DNA from: Intoshia linei
Taxonomy: Eukaryota; Animalia; Orthonectida
DNA: 36,306 nt
Assembly (NCBI GenBank): GCA_001642005.1
Contig: LWCA01000261.1
Coordinates: 1-36,306 of the forward strand
Reading direction: 5' to 3'
In this document: piece by piece, positions 5,687 to 34,500 of the stretch
How the letters are laid out: each line of letters starts with the position of its first letter
Position numbering within the stretch: position 1 is the stretch's first letter
The notes under the pieces: model-generated
Database searches by the model: none
The model's input: only the letters and a program-made list of their open reading frames with translations
Told to the model about the DNA's origin: nothing
Program-made: the position numbers and the translations under genes

Positions 5687-5803
5687 ATGTATATTGTAAA
5701 GTTGTAAATTATCGAGTAAATCGGTTTATTTTCATATTTTGTCATTTTTTATAAACTTTACGTAAAATTTAATTTTAAAATAAAGTTACATTTTTTAACG
5801 ACA

Positions 5804-7309
5804 ATGGAAAAAGATTCATTCGAAGGAAAGTTTGAATTTGGAATTTTGTTAATAAGTGGATCATTCAATTTGACCGTATTAAAAGGATGTGCAAAATGTC
5901 ATGGGTTTCATTTAATGAAGAAAAATGAGCCATATTATTTTTGTAACATTTTGCCATTTTCTCAATTTTGCATAGAATTGTGTGACGACGAATGTAATGA
6001 AAAATCTAATGAATTTCGGTACCGTATTGAGAAAATTGAGAAACCAAACTTGATACACATACAAACGGACTCTTACTTTAGTAGACTGGTTAGAAATATG
6101 AATGCAAAAATTGAACATGAAGTGTTCAATAATTATACCGAAATAAAAAATATGAAAGTTGTGACATATGATTATGATACAATTACTACATTATCGAAGA
6201 TGTGTGGTTTTAACAAAAAGTATTTTGTTATGGGTTCTACTGATACCGGGAAATCAACAATGACAAAATATATTGTGAATTGTCTATTAAATATAAATGA
6301 TAAGGTTTATTATATAGATTGTGATATTGGTCAATCTGAATTCTCTACACCCGGGTGTATTTCATTGTTTTGTTTGAAAAAACCAGTATTTGGACCTCCA
6401 TTCTCTCATGTTATCGAAACTGTTGCTTCTTGTACAATTGCAAATAATACGGTTACAAATATTGAAATTAATTCATATTTAGCATGTGTGAATCATTGCT
6501 ATAATCACTATTTGAATCAAAAAGTAAACGATCCATTAGTAGTAAATTGGATGGGCTGGATCCAGGGGCTCGGGTATCAGTTAATGAAGGAAACTATTAA
6601 AATTGTTCGACCCCATTTTGTTGTACAGTTAGATTCTCCAATGAAACATGTCAATATCAACCCTGTAGACACCTTGTCTATTCAAGATTCAAAGTCTAAA
6701 CGTTCTTTTTCGAAAGAATTTACCAATGTTTTAATAAAATCTCCCATTGCATACAATACCGTCAAAACTTATCCAAACCAAAAACTCAGACAACTCCAAT
6801 TTCTAGTTTATTTTTCGAACGTATTTAAGGTGTTCAATGTTGCTCTTTCTTTAAATTATGCTAAACCTTACATGATACACTTTTCAAATATCTTTATTAA
6901 GCTTCACACTAAAGTGCCTCCAGATATGTATTGTGATGTCATAAATGCGAGCGTGGTTAGTTTGTCACATTTAGAAGATAATTGCGATTATACCCATAAT
7001 TATTGCAATATTTCTAAAATGAATATTCTTCAATCCAATACTACCGAAAAATTTGATCATTTAGGCTACGGTATATTATTTTTTATTAGAAATTTAGCTT
7101 CATTTTTAGGTATAATAAGAAACGTTGATTTAATAAACAGAATTATTTTTGTTATTACTCCTTTATCTTCAAAAATTATTTCACAAGTAAATGTCATCAT
7201 ATGTACAAAAATACCACTTTTAACGAATATTCTTAGTTCTCAGGTAATATTAATATTTTGTTTTCTTATCTACAATGCATTGTAGTGTATTTATCCGTTA
7301 CAGGAATAA
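5804..7309 (+). CDS. NOL9: Polynucleotide 5'-hydroxyl kinase NOL9/Grc3 (Clp1 family)
   Basis: P-loop GSTDTGKST, DCDIGQSEF, PLVVNWMGWIQGLG and C-terminal LGYG|IIRNVD...IFVITPL. 39-nt intron 7071-7109, intron 7244-7285 and a probable terminal exon 7286-7309. Confidence 0.9.
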
Positions 7310-8952: not shown

Positions 8953-11285
8953 TTAAATGGGTATAATAGTAGTTTCAAAAGTTTCCATACTGTTTGATAA
9001 CACTCGTGGATCGCCATAGTCATCTCTATACGCTGAAAAAACCATTTTAATTTCAGAGTTTATATACAATCTTCCACTAGACGATTTAACGACTCTAAAA
9101 TAAAAATACATGTAATAATGTATAATTTATTAGTACTTCATATGAAGCAAATGTTTGACATGTCTTTTTTTCCGTCGTTTAAAGTAAATTCGATGTCTAA
9201 TAAAAGAAACATTTTTGCGTTTCAATTCTTTAAAATCGTATGGAACTGAAAATAATTTCACCATTGTATCATTAGGATAAAAAATTGTCTAAATGCAACG
9301 TAAATACTCTGAAACTAAAATTATTACAATTTGTACAAACCCAGATTCAGGTATCATGTATCTTTTTATTTTAGCGGTTCCCTAAATTTAAATAATAACC
9401 GGTACGAAACTAATTACTATTACCAAATAAGGGGACGGAGCGTCCATATAATTTAATTTGAAAAACGATATATCTAGTGGTATTTTTATTAGGTCAGTTT
9501 TAAAATTTCCATGAGCCACAAGTTCACAATAAAAATTTTTCAAATGACCGTATTCCTTGAATCGTCTTTTCAATATACTTTCCTAAAGAGGTAAAATTAC
9601 AATGTAAACAATTAAACACAACCTCAAAGTTTATATAAAAATGTTTTCCTGGTATACTTGCTAAATCAATATTTCTAAATAAAAGAATTAAAAATGTTAA
9701 CTTTTTAATTACTCATTTAGTTCATTGTATGAGGTTTTTGATTTAAAGGTAGTCTAAAAATATTAAATAAATGGTAATTAAATTTATTTAAATAAAGAAA
9801 AATTACTTTTAAACAATTGATAGGTTTATTATTTTCTTTCTTGTCAAGTTTATATTGAGAAAAATGCTTCATCAAGTTTAGTTTTTTATGTTTGTTGATA
9901 TATGTTATTTGCGAACGTAAGAAAACGTTTTTAAGGGTATTCTTTTTTTGGAATATTGGCTCCTTTAATAAATTTGCATTTTTATCGCACACGTCAAAAC
10001 CACAAGGTGAATCAGAACGTGATTCAAGTTGTTTAATGTCTTTATATCGGTTTTTTAAATTGTGAGGTTTAAAGAGGTTACCAGATAATTCCATTTCAAT
10101 ATTATATTTTTGTGAATTTGTTTTTGATTCCAACTTGCGTTCATGTTTTTGACAAACGTAAGTAGTTGACAAGTTACACATTGAGGAATATTTTTTACCT
10201 TCACTATTTAACATGTTTAAATTTTTACGATAGATTTGAGGAGTAAGATTGGAATAGGGCGGAATAACTGTTTGAGAATCTTTATTCTTTTTATATATAC
10301 AGGGTTTATATACAATAGATGTAAAATTATTTTGATCGTGACAGTCGAGGTTGGGGAGTAAGTTGTAGCAATCATGATTTGGTGTAACTTGACTACTTGA
10401 TCCATATTTGTAATTCAAGGCTTTAGAATCACGATGAGAGTAAGCATCTATAATTTGAAGAACAGTAAACATAAAATTTTTAATTTCGGTAATTTTAATA
10501 TTAATGTTTTCATCATAAAATGGCGGGCTAGCTTTTTCGCAACAAGATAGAATGATTGGTTGGACACAAATAAAAGCAGGTAAATGTTTGTATTTTATAA
10601 ACTTTTTATTTACAATTAATTCCATTGACGCGTCCAGTAACATGTCGTCTCCGAAAAGACTTTCCACAAACCAAAATTGTTTGATTCGTTTGAGTGAACT
10701 TTGAAAATTATTTACTTTGGGCGGTTTTACTTGGCAGTCGTCTGCATAGTGTCCATTTTTGGAACTGTACAATTTAAATTTAACGGACGAGACATTTTGC
10801 TGAAACCAATGAGAAAACTCCTTGTCATGAATTACCGAACAAGAATACATGTGTTGGATTTCTTGCATCAAATTGTGTCTTTTCGCCAAATTAGAATTTT
10901 TTGTAACTCCAATGGAAAATTTCCACCTTTCAAGTAAAACTGTATCTTCTTGTTTTTCATTCATAAATTCACACATTGGTATGAAATTTTCATAGACGGC
11001 CGTATTAAAGCAACTTTCTTTTTCATTTGATACACCCTTCTTCAGGCAGTGTATATCTATAAACACGGATCCACATTTGTTTAATAAATTGCTAATATGG
11101 TAGCTTAAATTTCTCAATATTTCGTCATTCAGACTAGAATCGAACATTGATGTTATAAAACCCGGCACATCCACAAACTTTGTAAACTCTGACAAATCCG
11201 CCAGTTCCTCCATACTCTCATCCTCGCAATCATTACTATTGAGTCGATTTGTAATTTGATGTTTCTGTAAATCTAAAAATTTCAT
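8953..11285 (-). CDS. ATOSA: Atos homolog / FAM214-like protein (DUF4210 plus C-terminal chromosome-segregation domain); 5' end may extend further
   Basis: A large exon containing LLERWKFS is followed by short exons spelling INFE|ESILKRRF...KIPLDISFFKLNYMDAPSPYL|GTAKIKRYMIPESGFVQI|TIFYPNDTMVKLFSVPYDFKEL...KHLLHM|..KSSSGRLYINSEIKMVFS. This matches the FAM214 C-terminus (NFEESVL..RF, APSPY, TLFNPNKTVVKMF, SKSGKIYL). Confidence 0.85.
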
Positions 11286-14069: not shown

Positions 14070-15060
14070 ATCCTTACTTACTTATATAACTTATATAATA
14101 TAATATTACTTATATAAAGTAATTTAGTTAAAAATGTAAAATCTTGTATGAAAATATGTTTTGTGTTCCAGTTTATCTAAAACAGTAAGAGGAGTCTTAC
14201 TTAATCAATTTAAAAATTCCATATTTCTATTAGTTTTTCGAGAGTGATGTTTTATCGCAAATTTCATTTTCAGAAATTGAGTCCTTCAAGGTCAAAAACC
14301 CCAATTGTCTTTTTTTTTAAATTCAAACCAGTCCTAGAATTATAAAAAATATTCAATCTGATCAAGACTTTAAAATTATCAACATTATAATTATTTTAAA
14401 TTTAAAAATCTCATATCTTCACGACCAAAACCACAAATTACCTTTATTAGTAAAAATTAAAAAAGTCCAAGAATTTTATACAACATAAATTCGGGATAGT
14501 TTTTTAAATCATAAGCATTAATCGATAAAACGTTCAATTTCACGATCAAAACCACAGATTACCCTTTTTTTTAAATTAAAAAAGATTTATCATTTAAAAA
14601 TATTTACAGTTGATACAGTTATATGCAGTTAACACAGACAAAAAATTCAATTTGATAAAGTGACGCCTTCTTTATTCTGATACAACTTATTACTCACTTT
14701 TTAATTTTTAATTTGAATCCAACATTTAAAAAATATTGGTTGATAATATATTAAAAAATTATTTTTCACCAGGAATGCGTAGATTTCTGGGGTTGCAAAT
14801 TTGTATTTATACAACTGGATAAGCTCTATCTGAATAATCCTTTTTTTTAATTTGCTGACAGTTTAATTATTTCAATTTTTTTGTTTCAATAAAATATTTC
14901 GAAATACAAAAAATAAATACTAAAGTGTTTTTTTGACCTCGAAAGCGTCACTTATTCAGATTGAATTTTTTTGTGCGTTAACAGGATACAACTGTACCAT
15001 GTGTAATTTTTTTAAAATTCTAGGGCTGTTTATATTTTTAAAAAAAAAAAATCTGAGTTT
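14070..15060. repeat. Multi-copy repeat family (copies ~21090-21727, ~26150-26783, partial ~7469-7680), possibly Helitron-like
   Basis: The block aaaaatattggttgataatatattaaaaattatttttcacc.ggaat.cgtagat...cacttattc.gatt...ctagggctgttt is present three times. One end reads TCCT(T)ACTTATATAA...tgtctgtgtgt, resembling non-autonomous Helitron 5' ends. Confidence 0.65.
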
Positions 15061-16581
15061 AATCTGTCTAAGTAGACACCCCATTAAAATCATAGTTTTC
15101 TCAGTTCCTTCAATTTTTTGCCTTAAATTTTCTTTTTTTCGTTCAAAAATCTGAACCTATCGTAAACATTTTCAGTACACACACCAAAATATAATAATGA
15201 AATATATTAATAATTAATATTATTTAAAAACGAAGCAAAGGGTATAATTATAGAAACGAATATTAAAGTAATTTAATTAAATATAGTTTCAATTTTTCAT
15301 TAATATTTTTATATGAGAATGTTAAAAGGGTATGCGCAATTCGAATAGGCATTTGTTTTTAAAATAAATACACCAAACCAACACTAGACACCAAAGAAAT
15401 TCCCAAATTTTCCAAAAAATGTGACACCCTAATGCACAATGAGCGATTTTATAGTGCATAGTGAAATTAAAATGAGCCCAAATACTACTAAAAATAAACA
15501 AAAAATATTGATTTAATAGTTGAAATAATGAATAGAAAATGAGTCCAAATAAAATTATAGAAATAAAACAATAACTGTTTTAGTATTCATTTGAATTTGA
15601 GTCACAAAATATATAAAACAAGTCATATAACTTATTTACTCATACAAATTTTCAACTAGAAACCAATCCCATATAATTCATATTCCTATCCATGAAAGAA
15701 CAACAACTACAGTAAAAAATACCGTACATTGAAAAATGTAAAATTTAAGCGTTAAAAAAACTATATCAACTTGAAAACAAATGAAACTTTCATGTACACT
15801 AAAATAATATCCATTTAAAGTGTAAATGTGTAAAATTTACACAAAACAATTTGTAGAATAAAATGTATAAATAAAAAATTTTAAACAATAAACCATATTG
15901 ATAGAATTTGCAGTTGATAAAAATTTACCTTGAAAATTGTTAGAATCCACTGGCATATTGATTCATTAATAAGAAATCAAGTTTGAATATTCAGATCGGT
16001 AGCTGTGAGTGCTTAGTTGAACATTTCAAGTTTTTTATAAATTTAGACACAATTAATGTTTTGTGTAATGTCAACAATATTTTCAATCTAATAGAGCCAT
16101 TATATTGTTTTCGATATCAATCGACATATCTACAACAACTAGAAAGAGCCACATAGACCCAAATAAGCAAAGATTGGATTCTATAATTGAATTTGTTCTA
16201 ATATAAAACATGTATCTATCCATTACATGCAGATTATTGAGATACATTAAACGACTGAGATATACATAATCAAAACAGATGCTAAAATGTTTATATTTTT
16301 CAAAAAAACTACATGGAAATATATTAACTTATTAATGATCCGTTTGTGAGATAATTGCGTATTTAGAGTTTTTTAACTTCTTAACGAGTTCATATTTTCA
16401 TCAGACAATGTTGACATTTTTTGGATAAATTGTTCAACTTTTGATACATTTTTACACTTCATAATTTAAATGTTTTTGCAATATATTCTGTAGTTTAAGT
16501 AAACATACTTTTATTTTTTGTATCCATGTCTTTAGCGCATTATTCAAATATTTAAATTTGGAATAAATAAATTTAAATTAA

Positions 16582-19500
16582 ATGCCTAGAATTAATTCTG
16601 ACCACGTCAAGTTATTTAAAAATAGTGGGAAAAGTTTGGTAATTTTTTTGCCACAATTTTTAAATTTTCATCAGGATGTTCGAAAAAGACGGTTAGAAAG
16701 GAGTGTTGAACTGCGTAAACAAAAACGTGATGAACAATTATCGAAACGAAGACAAATTGACGAAAGTGTGTCTAATGATAGTTTATCCGACGTGTCTATT
16801 GTGTCCAGCGAAAAAGTGATTGATTCTATATTTATTTGATAAATAACTAATGCACTGTAAAATTAAGCACAAAGTAAAATTTACACAGTACTGAATCAAA
16901 GTCTAGATGACAATTAATTAATTATATTTACCAGGATGGAATTCAAGCTATAGAAAAATTGTTAATGTCAAATTCTGAAAAAAAAATTTCACAAGGAGCG
17001 CAACTATCACGCCAAATATTGTCCAAAGTAGAATCACCTCTAATACAAGAATTTATAGATCGAGGAATAATGCTTAAATTGGTATCTTTATTGGAATACA
17101 ACAAGTATGTGATTGTAAAAATGTTGATTTCATCTTATTTTAATTAGTGAAACGGTACAGTTTGAATCTGCTTGGGCCTTGACCAATATTGCATCAGGAA
17201 ATTCTGAACAAACACAATGTGTTGTGAAAGCTGGAGCATTGACAAAATTGATAAACCTGTTAAAATCAAACAATATGATTTTATGTGAACAAGCTATCTG
17301 GGCAATTGGAAATATTTCTGGAGACGGCTCTCAAATGCGAGATTTAGTTATTAATTTAGATGTCATTTCTTACTTTGAAAACTTTACTACTAAAAAAATG
17401 TCACTAACCTTTTGTAGAACTTTAAGTTGGGCATTATCAAATTTGTGTCGAAATAAAAATCCTTTTCCACCTGAATGGGCTGTCAAAAAATTGATAAATT
17501 TGATGCACACATTAATTGAAATTAATGATTCCAATGTGCATGGTGATATTTGCTGGGCTGTATCATATTTGACTGATGGACCTGATGAGCGTATTAAGGT
17601 TGTTATGTCTAGTGGTAACTTTTATAATTTAGTCAGTGCCGAGCTTAGCATATTCGAAGCCCCTCTTGGGTGCCTTCATCAAAATCTATTTAAAATTTTT
17701 GTAAAAATGGGCCTCATTTTTCCAACTCGAACAATAACTATTTTCTTTAATATTAATTATTTTGTGTGATAAATTTAAAATGTCACGATCGATAGTCTTG
17801 GAGATGTTGCTAGGGGTTATTTTACATTTTCGGTGGCTCGAGGTTTGTAGGTTGGGCTCGCAATCTAGTTAATAACTGTACAACTAATAAGTGATTCCAA
17901 CCATTGTAGTTGTATTTTGGTAATCCTTTCATCAAATTCGACTGAACCGTATTTTATATTCCGTATATACCGTTTTTATATTCTCAGTCGATGCCTTTTT
18001 TAGACTTAAAACATTTTACGACCCTTTAAATTTGTATTAAAACATGTCTGCGAGAATAATGGTGTCATATAAGATTTTTTGTTGGTTTTTTCATTTCAAA
18101 TCTTACCGTCCCTGATTTGGAACCTAATTCAGCCACTCTGATACCTGTTCAGTCGCGTAACCTTATTTTCAAATTATCTTGGTTTGTAATATTTAAAATC
18201 AAACCAAATTCCCCCTGGTCTGATATTGAATTCTTGTATATTTTAATTATATTGTATACTAAAATGGAGGGGTGATTCATTTCAATCACAAATTATGATA
18301 GGGATCCGTTAAAACTTGATTATAATTATGACAAACTTTAGGGTTCCTAGGAAAATATTTTTCAATTTGTAAAGCCTAGGCTTAAATGGGTGATTTCATA
18401 GATGGTTGGAAGTCACTTCTCTAATATATTTAATTTTTTATATTTGTAACATCGTTAGGGTTAATACCTAAAATTGTTAATTTGTTCAATCATTACAACA
18501 TTCTTTCAATTTTGACACCAATTATTCGAGTTGTAGGAAATATTGTTTCTGGCAATGACGAGCATACAAGAGTAATTAATAATTTAATATTTATGTAATA
18601 TTTTTCATTATAGATGATTTTGAATTATAATATTTTGTCTAAATTTCCAAATATTTTACGAGATCATAACAAATCTCTTAGTAAAGAGTTGATGTGGACA
18701 GTTTCTAATATTGCAGCCGGTAAACCTGACCAAATCGAGCAAATTATTATTTCCAAATTAACTAAACCTATAATAAAATGCTTTAAAAATGTAATTTTTT
18801 TAAATTGAATTAAATCGGAACTGTTGTGAAAAGCTACCACTTTTTTCAAAATTTAAAATGTTCAGTTTTCCTATTAAAACGAATTTTATCTAGGCAAAAA
18901 GTAAATTTTCGACCAAAAAACCGAACCATGGGCTCTGAATACAATTTGAAAAAAAATTTTTTTCATTAAAATACCTTTTTAACGATTAAATTGTGTTTTA
19001 TATATATTACATCTATAAAAAATGAATAATTTTCTGGTACCACAAATCGCCCACCATTGTTTATTATTAATTAAAAACGTATCAACTAGAAAATCTATGT
19101 AATACGTTTTAGATGAAGTGAAGGATTCGCAGACTCTAATTTCTTAATGAAAAATTTGTATTTAACTTGCTTTTTTAGTTAATTTTTCTCAGGTTCCCTC
19201 AAAGTTTTTTCAGTCTCAACGTTCTGATTGGTGATATAAATCAATAATCCCGAAGATAAGTATATCAATTGTACTCTTTTTCTATTTATTATACCTACAA
19301 CGTGTAAGATGTACTATTATTTCAGAATGATTACTGAAATTAAATCTCATTTGACTAATCAGTTAGAAACTATGTATTTACCCTACTCTTGAAGTTTAGG
19401 TAAATAAATTTCGAATTTTGGTATAATAATTAGTAAACTTTAAGAGGAACAGTGAGTATTTATGAAACAATTAATTTTGCGTCAATTGAACCTTGATTAA

Positions 19501-21089: not shown

Positions 21090-21727
21090 ATCCACATTTT
21101 TTTTTTGAAATTGTAGGATCAATATTTACATTTTTTATTTTAATCGAAATATTTGAAAAATATTGGTTGATAATATATTAAAAATTATTTTTCACCGGGA
21201 ATTCGTAGATTTCTGGGGTACAAATTTTGTATTTATATCAACTGGAAGAAGCTCTATCAGATAAATCCTTTTTTTAATTTTTGACCGTTAATTATTTCAC
21301 ATTTTTGGTTTTAATAAAATATTTCGGAAAAAAAATATATGAATACTAGAATGCTTTTTTGACCATGAAGTCGTCACTTATTCAGATTAAAATTTTTTAT
21401 GTGTGTTAACATGATACAACTCTACCACCTGTAAATTTTTTGAAATTCTAGGGCTGTTTTCAAAAAAAAGGAAGGATAATTTGGGGTTTTGGCCCTGAAG
21501 ATATAATTTTTTTAAATTTTCCAACTTGTTTGATTTTCAAAAAGAGGGACAACAAGGGTTATTGACCCTTAAGATGTGAAATTAGGAGGTTGAAATTTAT
21601 CTTATTATACGTCCCGGAAAAAACTGTAATTGAAATGTTATCTTTAAAAAATTTTAAAAATGCTAGTTATTTTAATAAAGTAGGACACACAAACAAAAAT
21701 CGCGTTGCCTTTTATATAAGGTAGGAT
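21090..21727. repeat. Copy of the repeat family at 14070-15060 and 26150-26783
   Basis: Long near-identical alignment with 26150-26783; ends in tatataaggtaggat. Confidence 0.8.
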
Positions 21728-22580: not shown

Positions 22581-23105
22581 TTATTTTTCTGTTCTTCTTT
22601 TTTTTCTTTTGATAGTGAATCGGGGTACATACCTCTGACTTACACAATTTTGAGTGGGTTTAACTTTTGATAGATGATGCGATTGTGGAATGAATTTATT
22701 TTTCGGCATGTACTTCGATTTTTGAATGTATTTATTATTCAGCATGCACTCCGATGGTTTAATGTATTTACTTTTCGGCGTGTACTTCGATTTTTGAATG
22801 TATTTATTTTTCGGCATGCACTCCGATGGTTTAATATATCTACTTTTCGGCGTGTACTCCGATGGTTTAATGTATCTACTTTTCGGCGTGTACTTCGATT
22901 TTTGAATGTATTTATTTTTCGGCGTGTACTCCGATGGTTTAATGTATCTACTTTTCGGCATGTACTTTGATTGTTCACAGAAGTTATCTTCCGATAAATA
23001 ATTCGATTGAGCGTATTCACAGTCCGATTGTGGAAATGAGTCATCTTCCGGTGAAGAATCCGATTGTTGATGTGATAAATTGATATCGTTAATATGTTCG
23101 AACAT
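22581..23105 (-). CDS. Orphan 174-aa protein: acidic N-terminus, eight 12-aa Tyr/Lys/Pro repeats, basic C-terminal NLS-like tail
   Basis: Single ORF from ATG 23105 to TAA 22581 that stays open in non-repetitive sequence on both sides of the repeat. Repeats are KYTPKSRYIKPS / EYTPKNKYIQKS; the tail is KRKKRR. Confidence 0.6.
   Translation of the reverse strand: MFEHINDINLSHQQSDSSPEDDSFPQSDCEYAQSNYLSEDNFCEQSKYMPKSRYIKPSEYTPKNKYIQKSKYTPKSRYIKPSEYTPKSRYIKPSECMPKNKYIQKSKYTPKSKYIKPSECMLNNKYIQKSKYMPKNKFIPQSHHLSKVKPTQNCVSQRYVPRFTIKRKKRRTEK
22680..22968. repeat. Tandem minisatellite, 36-bp unit built from 18-bp sub-units, about 8 copies
   Basis: Units such as ttttcggcgtgtactccgatggtttaatgtatctac and ttttcggcgtgtacttcgatttttgaatgtatttat alternate. 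Confidence 0.9.
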
Positions 23106-25666: not shown

Positions 25667-26148
25667 CTATATTTGAAAAATATAAGTATTTTTTAATAAT
25701 AATTAAAATAAGTGCGAATGTTTTTTACTTCTGGAAAGCTGTATATAAATACTATTGTGCATTTATATAAACACTAGTGTACATTCATATATGGACCATT
25801 TTAACTTTTGATTGTATTGCACGGCATTATATAATTAGATTTATAATATTATTTAGGATTGGACTGTTTTTACTTTATTTTTAATATTATACACACATTC
25901 TGTTTAATAAATTAAAAAAATGGGATAACAATTGTTTTTAAAATTCTTTACACAAATAGTACAATAAAATTAAGATGGAAGAATTCACTTTAAAGTTAAA
26001 AGAAATGTGATATGAAGGTTACATCTGAAACAAGTTTGGGAACCACTCCTTTAAAGAGTTAATAATAGTGAATAGTAGGATTTTAAGTTAGATTTTCAAC
26101 GTGAATTTATTTTTTAGTAAAATAAAAATGTGCCCTTGCAGAGCTAGG

Positions 26149-26149
26149 N
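26149..26149. other. Ambiguous base / probable contig join
   Basis: A single n lies between two different repeat families, and the genes on both sides (UBA3, NUF2) are truncated toward it. Confidence 0.7.
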
Positions 26150-26783
26150 TTTAATGCACAATTTTTTTGAAATTGTAGGATCAATATTTACATTTTCAAT
26201 TTTTGGTTTCAATCGAAATATTTGAAAAATATTGGTTGATAATATATTAAAAATTATTTTTCACCGGGAATGCGTAGATGTCTTGGGTAAAATTTTGTAT
26301 TTATATCAACTGAAATAAGCTCTATCAAAAAAATATATGACTACTAAAATGATTTTTTGATCGTGAAAGTGTCACTTATTCGGATTGAAATTTTTTGTGT
26401 CTGTTAACAGGATACAACTGTACCACCTGTAAATTTTTTAAAATTCTAGGGCTGTTTTCATTAAAAAAAGGGTAATTTGGGGTTTTGGCCCCAATTTGAA
26501 GATATATTTTTTTTAAATTTAAATTTATCATAATATTCATGATTTTAAAATCCGTATCAGAAGATATATTTTTTTAAATTCTCCAACTCGTTTGATTTTC
26601 AAAAAAAAAACAATTGGGGTTTTTCACCCATAAGATGTGAGTTTGGGAGGTTGAAATATATTTTGCTAACACTCCGGAAAAAACTGTAATTGAAATGTGG
26701 ACTTCATAAAATTCTAAGACTGGTATTTATTGAAATAAACGGTAACACACACAGACAACAAAGCATATTATATAAGTAAGGAT
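26150..26783. repeat. Copy of the repeat family at 14070-15060 and 21090-21727
   Basis: Near-identical to 21100-21727; ends in tatataagtaaggat. Confidence 0.8.
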
Positions 26784-28588: not shown

Positions 28589-31500
28589 TTACAATTGAAC
28601 AACATGTGTCAAACTATATAAATCAATAGGACTGCTGGTGTCAATCTAAAAATATAAATTAGTACAGAGATGAAATGTATAATATAATATTATGAAACCT
28701 AACCATGGACCCACCAGAAATGTTTAATTTTAAAATTTATTTAAAAAATCTTTGAGAACCGCTAGTCTACTTTATAAAAAATGTACCTTAATATTTCTAT
28801 TATTCACACTCCTTCTGTATGTCAAAATTGCAAAAGAAACTAACCCAGCACCACCACTTACAATTAAAAGATATGCAATGTATTCTAGGTAAGAAACTAT
28901 GAACACAATTTGAGCCACCATAACTGCAGTTTTGGTATCAATGCAATATCTCTAAATTTATTTAATAAACCAATAAATAAATACTATACCTCTTGTAAAC
29001 TATATATTGGAAAAGCATAATCGCTCAATAATGAATGGTTAATTTTTTCATTTCCACTATTTTTATATTAAAAAAAAAACAAAAAAAAATGTACTTGTAA
29101 AGAACATAATGTGTATTTCGTATCATCAGACTAGCTGTAAATTGCTTTTGACTACACAAGACTTTACCGGTGACCTATAAATGAATATATACCACAATTA
29201 CGAGTCAATTACCGGCTCCAATTTTAACCACGATTCCGTTTTTTCAAAAGGTTTGATACTAGATTTTCTTAAAAATTTGTCTACTTGAGAATATTGAGGT
29301 ATTGAATATACAAATTCTCCCACTAAATAAATTGTATTATAAAAAATTAATAAAGCAATATTTTAAGGAGATATTATGACTATAGGGAAGTGCTTTCCAA
29401 TAGGTAAGTCGGAGATGAATTCTAGATGTGTCGCCAACATTTGACCACTTTGTATTATCGAAAAATGACAAATTTTTTATTAATACATTTGTAATTATAT
29501 GATGCCATTATTTTTATTCGAAAAAAATCGATTTTATAATCAGATTTTAAAATTATAATTTTTTTCATTATCTTATACTGACGTGTAGCGACTATTTTTT
29601 TAATTGAAATGTATGTAGTCAAGAAACTGATTAGAAAGCACTGATAGGGTCGATAAATCATGTAAATGAAGGAATATTACTTTTACACGGCATTAAATTA
29701 AAATTTCCAGTTTTTGTACAACAAAAATTGACATTTGTTTTATCATTAATGTCTCCATTTAAACAATTTTGTTTACAAAAATCTACATTAATACGATTCT
29801 TTAATGGGTTTTGATAAATATTAGGTGAAATTTTCTAAAAAATAACAATATAATAATAAATTTTTTGTTTTTACGTATTGATAAGTGTGAATTCCTCGAA
29901 CTAAAGCAGTTTCATCAAATTGGACAGAAATGGATCTACACAATTCAGGATCAAAAATGTACAAATCTCTAGTTTTATCAACAAATGGATTCCAACCACT
30001 TCCATCTGTTCCATTCAACATGTTACTGTTTTCGCTATTCCAATAATTCAATTGTCTAAATTAAAATAATAACTTAATTAACAAATAATAGTAATTGTCG
30101 TATAGTAAATATAGTATACTAAGTTGACTGTTATGTACTACGTACAAACAGGACTTAAGCTCTGCCGATGGCACATTTTTATTATACTTAAAAAATAAAT
30201 TCACGTTAAAAATGTTACACAGATGTTAGTATACAACGTTACAATGAACAATAATAATCTCATCAATGCATATAAGCGTAAATTTTCCATTTCACCAATA
30301 ACGAATAGCTGCATGCCAACTCACATTTGCAGTGTATGGTATATGTATATTAATAAGCCAAACACTTTACACTTTGTAAATCTACGAATTTGGTCTTAAC
30401 CTAAAAATCATCAAAATGATTGCTATTTTTGCTCCTTTTTTATTGCATTATTTATGTATGTATACGACGGCGGGTGGTTCGTATGACACGAGTTCGGCAC
30501 GTTCGGTACGCTACTGCTGATCTCCAAGCGAACACGAAGCATGTAAGCACAACATGAAGAATGTGTAAGCAGATTACTAATCTATATGAAGATAGTAGTG
30601 CCGCTTCAGAAGAAACTAAGTTCCTAATAACCCTTGGTAATGTTTTTCCGACGTTTAGGCACAAAGTATTATCTACAGCCCGTTTTCTACATTTAATCGA
30701 GTGTGAAAATAATGGCATGTATGCTCCCATTATATCGATTTTCGAAAATGCAGTTAATGATACACACATCATGGAAAATATAGACACGACATCCATACTC
30801 CAGCAGTATGTGAACACACAACACAGGGTTTAAGTACTCGAGCATGTAGCTTATGCCTTAAACATGCTCACATTCCTAGACCCTATGGATAACAACGAGA
30901 TCGAGTACTTGACTTATATCTATTTACCTGACATACTATGCGGTTCGACGTGCTACGGTGAAGGCACTGACATGACGGAAAAGCTTATGAAAGACCGAAA
31001 ACGTATCGAGTTTAATTTCGCTATTGGATGTGAGAGTGGCTATATTTCACTATGGGAAGATTACAAATCTTGGTTAATTTTTCCAACAGTAATGGAAACA
31101 AAATTAAACACGTATAACATAGAGGTGAAGAGGAAATGTGGGTGTGAAATTTTGTTAGAATTTTCAAAGGTGCGTACAGATAATCCGCAACGTGAAAGCG
31201 GCACCACAAGTCCCCTTTACCATGAAAATAAATACTTAGTTTTGAAAACAGTTTTAACATTCTTTAAAGGTGATTTATGTCTATTATTTGACATAAAAAG
31301 AACCCAAGTTATCAAAACTTGAATAAATATGTGGAGCGTTTTGTTGTATGTCTCGGAATTCTAGATCCGAAATTCAAAGTTATAATAAACAATATAATAT
31401 ATAAATATAATATAATATAAATATATAATAAATAAAAACTCAAAATCAAAAATTTAGCCCATTTTTTTAATTTAAAAAATCATAAACTGCATATTTCAAG

Positions 31501-34500
31501 TTAAAGCAGATGAATATAGCAACCACATAAACTCTTTAGAGAGCGAAACAAATCGAAGATTTATGGATTTTAAGTTGATGGAAAAAGAATTCAATTTATT
31601 ATCTTGCCCATTTTCAGTTGACGTTTCAACCGTTCCAGATAATCTTCAACTTGAGCTGATTGTACTTGGTCGCAATATTTCATTACCATTTATACCTCAA
31701 TCTTTTACAAATCCCAATCAAATACGGAAATATTCAGTACATACTGCTAAAAATCATAGAAAACCATACAACAATCGGTTATTTGCATTCTTAGACTCGT
31801 TACAGATACCAAAAAACTTAAAAAAATTAAAAATTGTGGTTTCGATAACATCGAAAAATCTATTCTTCAATTGCTTCGTATGTGTATAGAAAAGAACATA
31901 CCTGTTTCTGGTCGACAGTTACAAGATCAATAATTATCGTTTGCTAAAAAAACGAAATTCATAACTTTAGGGCATCTTAGGGATGATTTCATAACTTTAA
32001 GTCACGAAATGATGTACTTAATAAAAAATTATGCGGTGAGGCTGCCAGCGTAGATAATACCATATGTGAAAATTGGCGAAAAAACCAACAAAATGTTTTT
32101 AAAAGTTATCGTAATGAAGATATTTTTAATACCGATGAAACGAGTTTATACTATAAAGCAACCCCAAGGCATACGTTAGCTTTCAAAAACGAAAAAATTA
32201 GTGGAATCAATATATTTTAATGTTATTACTAGTCAATCTTTGGAAAAGAAAATAATTATATACTATTGGCATTGGAATACAAAGAGACTAAGTGTTGATG
32301 ATTTTTTAGTTCCTATACGGCTTGTGGTACCAGAAAAATTGGTTGAGAATCTGTATTCTTATGCTTTAACATTACTTAAAGGAAAATTCACTGTTAAGAA
32401 TTTGATGATCGCTGCTGCCACATTTAATAGTAGAGAAATTGTTATTGGTACCGCTGTAAAACAATTAGAAAGAGTACCAGCTGATGAGTTGCAAAAGATA
32501 GTTCATTCTGATTGGATGGCTGTGTATGTCAGTTCTTTTGAATGTTCTAAGACTTTATCGACATTGGTCAAATCAGAAGAAAAATATCGAAATTACTGTG
32601 ATAAAACGATATTCGGGAAATTGTTGGCTACTATTTTTTTCACCAAAATGCTGTGTCAAGAAACATAATACTGTAAATGCAATAGTCGCCGCCCAAATAA
32701 ATGAAAGTTTAGTTGATGAGTGTGGTGCTACTGCTGATATGAAAAATTATGTTTCATCGTGCCTGTCTAAATTCTTATGTAATATAAAAAAATTTGTAAA
32801 TCCCGTAGAGAATATAGCATATCAATGGATAGGTTCTGCCGATTCATCACGATAGAGGAGGAACTGGATATGGTCGCAGCTGAATATGTTGGACCGGACA
32901 AATGTACTGTTAATAGTACATTGATCGATTCATTTCCTCCCGATTATATAAGTAATGTATTGACATATTCTGTTCCTAGCGCAGATGGTGAGATAAGAAA
33001 ACACCCATTTTCCGATGACGCAGCGCCAATTTGATTGGAACAGAAAAATTACCACTTTTAATGATTGGAAAATCAAAAAATCCAAGGTGCTTTGCTGAAT
33101 TCGACAAAAATAATTTGCCAATATTGTATAAAAATTATAAAAAAGATTGGATGACTGCGATCTTATTTGAAGAGTGGCTGCACATAATTGATAAAAAATT
33201 TCATAAAGAAAACCGCCAAATACTGTTAGTAATTGACAAATGTACGGGCCATTGTAAAACTTTAATAGAACCACTAGACTCAATAACACTTTTATTTCTT
33301 CCACCTAATACAACTTGTGCTTTACAGCCCATGAATATGGGGATTATCAAAAATATATAACATTCAAGCTAGTTTATATTATATTACAAATTATATAGCA
33401 CCTTGAATAATTATAGGAAACCAAATCCCCGATTGCCGTTCCTTTTTTACCACTCCATACTTCATATCTTTCAGATATTGAATTATTTCGTAAATTTTTC
33501 TAAAAATATTATATATAGAGCCATTCATAGAGCATAATGATTAGGTTAATGAAGATTTTTCGGATGCTCTTAAAGAAGTTTTGATCATTGTGTATACTTT
33601 ATCGTTTTATTTAACCCTTAAAATTATATGAAATTTAAACAATTGTTATGTACTGTTGCTTAACGACTTTAGAGCATCCTATTTAAATGGCTCTAATTAT
33701 AAATTAACCCTTTCACTGTCTGTTTATTCTATACCATACACAGCAATTTCAATTCACACGTCTGTGTATTCTATGATATACACAGCATAATTTTGAAAAA
33801 CTTTATTTTTTTATTTTCATACATTTTCACATAGGTAATTTAAAAATAATACAAGTTTAAATTAAAAAAGAAATTTCAGACGTGTGGTGATGCATCATAA
33901 AATAGTATTAGACAGTGTATAGTACAGACAGTACTATACACTACGAAAAAAGTTCTTAGTTCTTACTAGGACCACAATAGTCAAAAACTGACAAAATTTC
34001 TGACTGAAAAGATTTTAACCGTATTACGGCATATCAACCATAAAATGGGCCTTTGAAAAAAAAATACCATTAGTTACATATATTAAATAGAAATTACATC
34101 AATTAATCCATGAACTTCAGGGTACGTCGTATACATTTGTTTATTTAATTTGACCAATGTTTCATCAGAATATCCCCATATATAATCGTGTATGTTAACG
34201 GTTCTGAAAAGGTTCAATTTGAAAGGGTAATCAAACAACATTTCAATTGAAGATCTCGTATGGCGATCAGTACTGTTTGTTATAGATAATATAGCCTATA
34301 TAAAAAATTGTTATGCATGGATAAAAAATTATACCCCGCCAACTAAATTTATCACAGTAACCAAATCATATTGACTAGCATATGACATTTCTTCATTAAA
34401 ATAGTAGGTATATTTTTCGTTGTAACTGACTGTGCCATTACAATTGTAGCTAATATCAACTTTTTCTTTGTGCTTTCTAAAAAAACAGATTTATCCAGTA

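What the first reader, a model, noticed from the sequence alone, without database searches (positions are those of the whole stretch)
31810..33360. EVE 2 is inserted inside a Tigger transposase, splitting the DDE domain
The transposase reads ...TLAFKNEKISG, breaks at ~32205-32210 and resumes ~815 nt later at ANLIGTEKLPLL. The roughly 12 codons normally in between (K-x-SKER-x-TV-LLC) are missing. The insert is nege/virga-like replicase in the same orientation, with no visible poly(A) tail or TSD. Most described EVEs are associated with LTR retrotransposons. A deletion-associated insertion into a DNA transposon points instead to double-strand-break patching with viral cDNA, or to capture during gap repair. 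If captured before transposition, the Tigger could have spread the viral sequence.
Basis: partly seen in the sequence, partly recalled or inferred. Interest (0 to 1): 0.8.

Follow-up and report, generated by a model that had tools for sequence, protein, structure and literature searches.

The report
RNA-virus fragment inside a dead transposon
An 816-base piece of an insect-type (nege-like) RNA virus replicase gene sits inside a broken, end-less Tigger-like DNA transposon in an intron of a tiny marine parasite's genome; it likely patched a DNA break and was likely never spread by the transposon, so it matters mainly as a fossil of such a virus reaching this animal group.

Summary
Observation confirmed. 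Window 32207-33022 (816 nt) is a broken fragment of a nege-like replicase (residues about 350-600 of about 2370; 46% identical to Wuhan house centipede virus 1, E 2e-31). It replaces 12 codons (about 36 nt) of a Tigger-like DDE_1 transposase, same strand, with no TSD or poly(A). One contig of run X1 crosses both junctions (30 letters on the left side; X1 may be the assembly's own sample). Family copies without the insert exist. New context lowers the surprise: the host is the orthonectid Intoshia linei (name from the tool), where DNA transposons are 8.0% of the genome, LTRs 1.3% and LINEs 0.02%, so a DNA-transposon landing site is expected. This Tigger copy is cut at both ends (31807, 33354), has N at the third catalytic D, and shows no second locus, so spread is not supported. 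Everything lies in a 3.3-kb intron of a minus-strand CD36-family gene, beside a second, more distant viral piece, all antisense to the gene. Best mechanism: end-joining patch with viral cDNA (0.6); microhomology is untested. Value: first nege-like EVE I could find for Orthonectida.

The parts
31807..32206 (+). 5' arm of a Tigger-like (pogo, DDE_1) transposase remnant, cut at its 5' end; holds the first catalytic D (NTDETS); broken by stops and a frame change
   Evidence: family contigs go on with other letters before 31807 (X3 loose end, X2 record 9), X1 record 2 crosses 31737-32063
32207..33022 (+). EVE2: 816-nt nege-like replicase fragment (end of the capping-methyltransferase region and the linker after it, about aa 350-600); broken reading frame
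   Evidence: X1 record 6 covers 32177-33312
33023..33354 (+). 3' arm of the Tigger-like transposase; second D present, third position reads N (32 residues apart, as D-32-D in P0063); cut at its 3' end
   Evidence: loose ends after 33354 in X1, X3, X4; X1 record 8 crosses 33285-33733 with 0 differences
30056..33401 (-). 3346-nt GT..AG intron of a CD36-family host gene that holds the whole array
   Evidence: X2, X3, X4 contigs join 33402 to letters found at 30026-30055; splice signals; Pfam CD36 E 1.3e-17 on the next exon
33402..33499 (-). 98-nt CD36-family exon next to the array, in frame with both neighbouring exons
30450..31330 (+). EVE1: weak alphavirus-like capping-methyltransferase fragment, likely from a different, more distant virus; limits approximate
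   Evidence: Pfam Vmethyltransf E 0.04; hhalign E 9e-4, probability 23%; above 500 of 500 shuffles, best identity 24% against 28-54% expected for the same virus
31476..31670 (+). short hAT-like (FAM200/GTF2IRD2-type) transposase piece; a lead only
   Evidence: no Pfam hit; Atlas rank 16, score 0.92, PF27046 on 72% of members, recognition below the reliable level

Best explanation
An 816-nt fragment of a nege-like RNA virus replicase gene replaces about 36 nt of a Tigger-like transposase remnant inside an intron of a CD36-family gene, and it likely got there when viral cDNA, likely made by an LTR-retrotransposon reverse transcriptase, was joined into a trimmed double-strand break in the germ line. 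Shown: viral origin, both junction positions, the 12 lost codons, no TSD or poly(A), intron location, loss of both transposon ends, one locus seen. Inferred: the reverse-transcriptase source (LTR elements are the main retroelements of this genome), the end-joining step, and that the Tigger was a passive target. The piece is likely a neutral fossil removed with the intron at splicing; the unspliced transcript would carry it antisense to the virus.
For: Replacement rather than clean insertion: 12 codons lost. No TSD or poly(A). LINEs 0.02%, LTR 1.31%, DNA transposons 7.97% of the I. linei genome (PMC7943196 supplement 1). Insert-free family copies: X3 record 17 covers both arms in one contig, and an X4 loose end carries the family's version of the missing motif. 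One X1 contig on the insert (depth 16.1; unique-flank contigs 11.5 and 12.5; 45-79 summed on the 5' arm bins). LTR elements are shown to reverse-transcribe viral RNA in mosquito cells (PMC6797480 passages).
Against: Microhomology untested: neither the source virus nor the full empty-site letters were available. All four pieces in the intron face the same way (1 in 8 by chance), which a mosaic cDNA predicts and break-patching does not. The two arms differ in distance from the same family contig (26 of 389 vs 28 of 216, p 0.011 in X3; p 0.008 in X4; not in X1, p 0.42), so they may not come from one copy. The left junction is crossed by 30 letters, one short of the tool's 31-letter rule, and X1 may be the assembly's own sample.
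Confidence: 0.6

Rival explanations
1. Mosaic cDNA: a template-switching reverse transcriptase copied Tigger mRNA, jumped to viral RNA and back, and the product (perhaps the whole EVE1 - hAT piece - Tigger - EVE2 - Tigger array) was inserted in one step.
For: All four pieces are on the + strand. The Tigger lacks both termini, as an mRNA copy would. Tigger family sequence is present in runs whose contigs look spliced (X2, X3, X4). Homology-independent copy-choice recombination of viral RNA is reported (PMC6797480).
Against: It needs a switch back to the same mRNA within about 36 nt. In the passages read, the hybrids in PMC6797480 were with LTR elements only. Antisense orientation in introns can also arise by selection (own knowledge). 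The pieces look of different ages: EVE1 at most 24% and EVE2 46% identical to known viruses.
Confidence: 0.17
2. Capture during gap repair after a Tigger excision: repair synthesis left the template, copied viral cDNA and returned, giving an internally deleted element that later lost its ends.
For: Internal deletion plus filler is the classic product of abortive gap repair (own knowledge). A second family copy is also rearranged in this region (X3 record 17: 64 letters where about 163 are expected).
Against: It requires two further deletions removing both TIRs. No TIR pair found (8-mer matches only). No second locus seen.
Confidence: 0.12
3. An ordinary insertion with a TSD or retrotransposon partner, later trimmed by a deletion that removed one junction and about 36 nt of Tigger.
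For: The locus has had other deletions (both Tigger ends lost), and the last 36 nt of the insert cannot be assigned to the virus by homology (matches end near 32986).
Against: No LTR or LINE remnant was recognised beside the insert; it needs an extra event.
Confidence: 0.08
4. Assembly artefact: a contaminating viral or host sequence was mis-joined into a repeat.
For: X1 may be the source sample; left overlap is 30 letters; the X1 contig differs from the window by 8 substitutions and 2 single-base gaps.
Against: X1 behaves as DNA (unspliced across the CD36 exon-intron border), holds the insert at flank-like depth, and its contig runs 290 letters into the right arm. The insert is decayed. A 169-nt piece is also in X2, from another study.
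Confidence: 0.03

Closest known systems
Endogenous virga/nege-like viral elements of insects (Kondo et al. 2019; Lu et al. 2024: titles seen in reference lists only; Bombus Martellivirales-like EVEs, PMC12922265 passages)
   Same: Decayed replicase fragment of the same broad virus group, sitting among mixed transposon remnants.
   Different: The host is a marine orthonectid, not an arthropod; the insert is nested inside a transposase with a defined deletion.
Horseshoe-crab nrEVEs flanked by DDE_Tnp and Transposase_1 domains (PMC12282059 passages)
   Same: RNA-virus EVEs physically associated with DNA transposons in a marine invertebrate.
   Different: Those are within 10 kb of transposase domains in the passages read, with no junction shown; the authors suggest a transposase role, while here the Tigger looks like a passive target.
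Aedes vDNA/LTR-retrotransposon hybrids and EVE clusters (PMC6797480; PMC6580184)
   Same: Likely source of viral cDNA; several viral and TE pieces clustered; antisense to the overlying transcript.
   Different: No LTR sequence at these junctions; no small-RNA data here; the cluster is a single intron.
Viral-type RdRP gene(s) in the I. linei proteome (PMC6396948 section 13)
   Same: Earlier hint that RNA-virus sequence is integrated in this species.
   Different: A different domain (RdRP, not methyltransferase/linker); the family and locus are not given in the text I read.

Membership tests
Non-retroviral EVE | Homology to an RNA virus protein | tested here: met
   E 2e-31, 46% to Wuhan house centipede virus 1 replicase; hits carry RdRP_2, Viral_helicase1, Vmethyltransf
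Non-retroviral EVE | Joined to host genomic DNA, with decay | tested here: met
   X1 records 2, 5, 6, 8 tile 31737-33733 apart from a 3-nt gap; right junction crossed by 290 letters, left by 30; stops and frame changes in the insert. X1 may be the source sample.
Nege-like viruses (broad nege/kita/virga-like group) | Closest relatives are nege-like replicases | tested here: met
   Named best hits are nege-like
Negevirus proper (Nelorpivirus group) | Nests in the clade with Negev and Loreto viruses | tested here: not met
   Careful tree, 57 rows x 155 columns: the 8-row clade with Negev and Loreto (99/96) excludes EVE2, which is unresolved among 50 rows; no test_one_clade was run and the bootstrap had not settled
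Tigger/pogo transposon | DDE_1 domain with pogo-type spacing of the last two acidic residues | tested here: met
   PF03184 E 4e-26; 32 residues between second D and third position, as in P0063; that this spacing is Tigger-type is recalled
Tigger/pogo transposon | Intact DDD triad | tested here: not met
   Third position reads N; the domain is split
Tigger/pogo transposon | Terminal inverted repeats and TA target duplication | tested here: not met
   Both ends truncated against family contigs; only 8-mer inverted matches
LINE-type retrocopy (TPRT) | TSD and 3' poly(A) | tested here: not met
End-joining (MMEJ/NHEJ) insertion | Target deletion without TSD | tested here: met
   12 codons lost; no TSD
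End-joining (MMEJ/NHEJ) insertion | Microhomology or filler at junctions | not testable with these tools
   Needs the source virus; best relative is 46% at protein level
Transposon-captured, mobilised sequence (Pack-type) | Same junctions at two or more loci within intact termini | tested here: not met
   One X1 contig on the insert; contigs run unbranched across both truncation points. No whole genome was held, so a diverged second copy is not excluded.
piRNA-cluster EVE | Antisense small RNAs from the locus | not testable with these tools
   No small-RNA run listed

The most novel reading that the evidence does not exclude
The whole 2.9-kb array in this intron (virus 1, hAT piece, Tigger, virus 2, Tigger; all one strand, no transposon ends) is a single mosaic cDNA stitched by a template-switching reverse transcriptase from two viral RNAs and two DNA-transposon mRNAs, and the host intron now yields antisense RNA against nege-like viruses in one of the simplest known animals.
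Probability: 0.12. Interest if true: 0.75.

Novelty: new member of a known kind. Interest (0 to 1): 0.4.

Why it matters
It is a dated-by-decay record that a nege-like virus, a group whose named members here are from land arthropods, reached the germ line of a marine orthonectid parasite (by infecting it, or from its host; not distinguished). I found no such report in the searches run. Because insert-free Tigger copies supply the pre-insertion state, it is a rare EVE whose target deletion can be measured, which makes the integration route testable. It does not show DNA transposons spreading viral sequence.

Tried and rejected
No whole genome was held, so other Tigger copies and EVEs could not be counted directly. 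IMG/VR scan with the insert: 20 pattern matches, none confirmed. Word-based protein searches found only the window's own gene model for the insert and for EVE1, and 3 unnamed Tigger-like proteins for the right arm. No RNA holder was listed; X3 and X4 show no cover over most of the insert, which is no evidence on expression. EVE1 and EVE2 as one split viral piece: their profile positions abut (about 220-343 and 348-615), but EVE1 is at most 24% identical to any of the profile's viruses where 28-54% is expected, and they share no clear nucleotide match (best 18 nt, E 0.026); rejected. EVE1 gave nothing in PDB or the Atlas. TIR search gave 8-mer matches only. The quick tree put EVE2 beside the centipede/aphid nege-like group; the careful tree did not keep this. 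Earlier-findings look-ups returned nothing. Paper searches with zero results. Lu et al. 2024 was not held; bioRxiv supplements (paper) were not seen and may list orthonectid viral reads.

Full report
Observation. The left arm (31999-32205) aligns to Tigger-like protein P0063 residues 5-74 and the right arm (33022-33354) to residues 87-197 (Pfam DDE_1 E 4e-26). Residues 75-86, twelve codons, are absent; P0063 and P0064 agree on this spacing. As P0063 is only about 50% identical, 36 nt is an estimate. In one search a loose end in X4 shares nine letters with the window up to 32206 and then goes on with the family's version of the missing motif, the X1 contig over the insert starts exactly 30 letters before 32207 (as expected at a graph branch), and family contigs in X1, X2 and X3 begin to align at 33023. 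The insert is therefore 32207-33022, 816 nt. No direct repeat over 4 nt lies within 6 nt of the junctions and there is no terminal A-run.

The insert is viral. Its longest unbroken piece (153 aa) matched 62 of 1.84 billion representatives at E<=0.001, one being the window's own gene model. I scanned 19 of the other 61: 16 carry RdRP_2 and Viral_helicase1, 2 short ones carry Vmethyltransf only, 1 had no hit. I looked up 20: named ones include Wuhan house centipede virus 1 (best, 46%, E 2e-31), aphid, thrips and whitefly nege-like viruses, Loreto virus, Negev virus, Hubei virga-like virus 7 and Rose latent virus 1. tblastn maps residues about 350-600 onto 32222-32986 on the + strand; a later piece matches separately (E 3e-9). 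The reading frame is broken. A careful tree (57 rows, 155 columns; 4 near-duplicate rows and short matches left out) leaves EVE2 unresolved among 50 nege/virga-like rows and outside the Negev/Loreto clade; the quick tree's closer placement was not kept.

Host and setting. The tool names the window's own gene model as a hypothetical protein of Intoshia linei; it is a chimera of EVE1, the hAT-like piece and the insert. Contigs of X2, X3 and X4 match 33402-33499 without differences and continue on one side with letters found at 30026-30055 and on the other with letters of 34098 onward. The skipped parts have GT..AG ends on the minus strand and the three exons join in frame; the exons hit Pfam CD36 (E 1.3e-17 and 0.008). 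I infer that these runs are RNA and that the array lies in a 3346-nt intron (30056-33401), antisense to the gene. The intron also holds EVE1, a weak methyltransferase-like piece (Pfam E 0.04; hhalign E 9e-4; above 500 of 500 shuffles), and a short hAT-like piece (lead only). EVE1 is too distant from the nege-like set (best 24%; 28-54% among 107 of 561 pairs as alike as EVE2 is to its hits) to be the same virus.

Same family, one locus, no mobility. X3 record 17 covers both arms in one contig with no viral sequence between, so the arms are one family. Against a simple reading, the arms differ in distance from that copy (26 of 389 vs 28 of 216, p 0.011; X4 p 0.008; X1 p 0.42). Family contigs go on with other letters before 31807 and after 33354, so this copy has lost both ends; no TIR pair was found; the third catalytic position reads N. 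In X1 a single contig (1136 nt, depth 16.1, 8 substitutions and 2 single-base gaps against the window) covers the insert, crossing the right junction by 290 letters and the left by 30, one short of the tool's bridging rule. Records 2 and 8 run unbranched from the arms into unique flanks at depth 12.5 and 11.5. A recent duplicate in other flanks would break those contigs. Limits: depth is no copy number, X1 may be the assembly's own sample, and the tables show only 32 of 272 pieces, 24 of 105 loose ends and 40 of 100 differences. X2, from another study, holds a 169-nt piece of the insert at depth 2.3 but no junction.

Mechanism. Shown: replacement of about 36 nt, no TSD or poly(A), intron site, loss of ends. 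Inferred: viral RNA was reverse-transcribed, likely by an LTR element, and the cDNA was joined into a trimmed break (0.6). In I. linei DNA transposons are 7.97%, LTRs 1.31% and LINEs 0.02% of the genome (PMC7943196, supplement 1, parts 2-3, last column), so the lack of LINE hallmarks and a DNA-transposon target are both expected. Rivals: a mosaic cDNA from template switching (0.17; favoured by four of four pieces on one strand and the missing termini), capture in gap repair after excision (0.12), insertion plus later deletion (0.08), artefact (0.03). Microhomology cannot be tested without a close virus.

Comparison with print. Passages read: PMC12282059 (EVEs near DNA-transposase domains in horseshoe crabs); PMC6580184 (LTR association in Aedes, non-LTR in ticks; nege-like NIRVS in Aedes); PMC6797480 (virus-LTR hybrids by copy choice); PMC12922265 (Martelli-like EVEs within mixed TE clusters); PMC12810003; bioRxiv 2023.11.03.565523 (no orthonectid virus named in the main-text passages; supplements unseen). 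PMC6396948 section 13 already notes viral-family RdRP genes in the I. linei proteome. Kondo 2019 and Lu 2024 were seen as titles only. Searches for Intoshia with 'endogenous viral' and for an EVE captured in a mariner-type transposase (six terms) returned nothing; 'orthonectid' with 'virus' gave 26 papers, 20 listed, 1 opened on this point. The library lacks most subscription papers.

Verdict. Real, well-delimited and viral: a new member of a known kind, in a new host group. The striking claim, spread by the Tigger, is not supported. Interest 0.4.

Noticed in passing
window 30450-31330: EVE1: a second, more distant alphavirus-like methyltransferase fragment in the same intron and strand as EVE2; two different viruses in 3.3 kb suggests a trap-like site.
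   Followed up: partly
window 29824-34300, minus strand: CD36-family gene with introns 30056-33401 and 33500-34097, shown by joined contigs in X2, X3, X4; the second intron holds high-copy repeats.
   Followed up: partly
window 30561-32665: The public gene model P0001 (382 aa) is a chimera of EVE1, the hAT-like piece and EVE2 on the strand opposite the CD36 gene; likely an annotation artefact.
   Followed up: yes
run X3 record 17 against window 32195-33139: Another Tigger family copy has 64 letters where about 163 are expected, and contigs in X2 and X4 also start at 33139: an internal deletion or a spliced form in the same region as the EVE.
   Followed up: no
window 31659-31806: Unidentified repeat piece between the hAT-like fragment and the Tigger; another copy exists in X1 (record 1, depth 25.7); no Pfam hit.
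   Followed up: partly
run X2 (organism B) against window 33402-33499: A run filed under a different organism holds the CD36 exon without differences and a piece of the insert; likely a mixed host-parasite sample.
   Followed up: no
window 5720-7285 + and 17128-17769 +: NOL9/CLP1-type kinase ORF and an armadillo-repeat (importin-alpha-like, label recalled) exon.
   Followed up: no
window 9717-11285 -: 522-codon ORF with no Pfam hit.
   Followed up: no
window 22644-23029: 36-nt tandem repeat inside a minus-strand ORF giving a 12-residue peptide repeat.
   Followed up: no
window 14261-15061, 21100-21698, 25858-26758, 30124-30218: Several non-coding repeat families in direct and inverted copies, MITE-like.
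   Followed up: no
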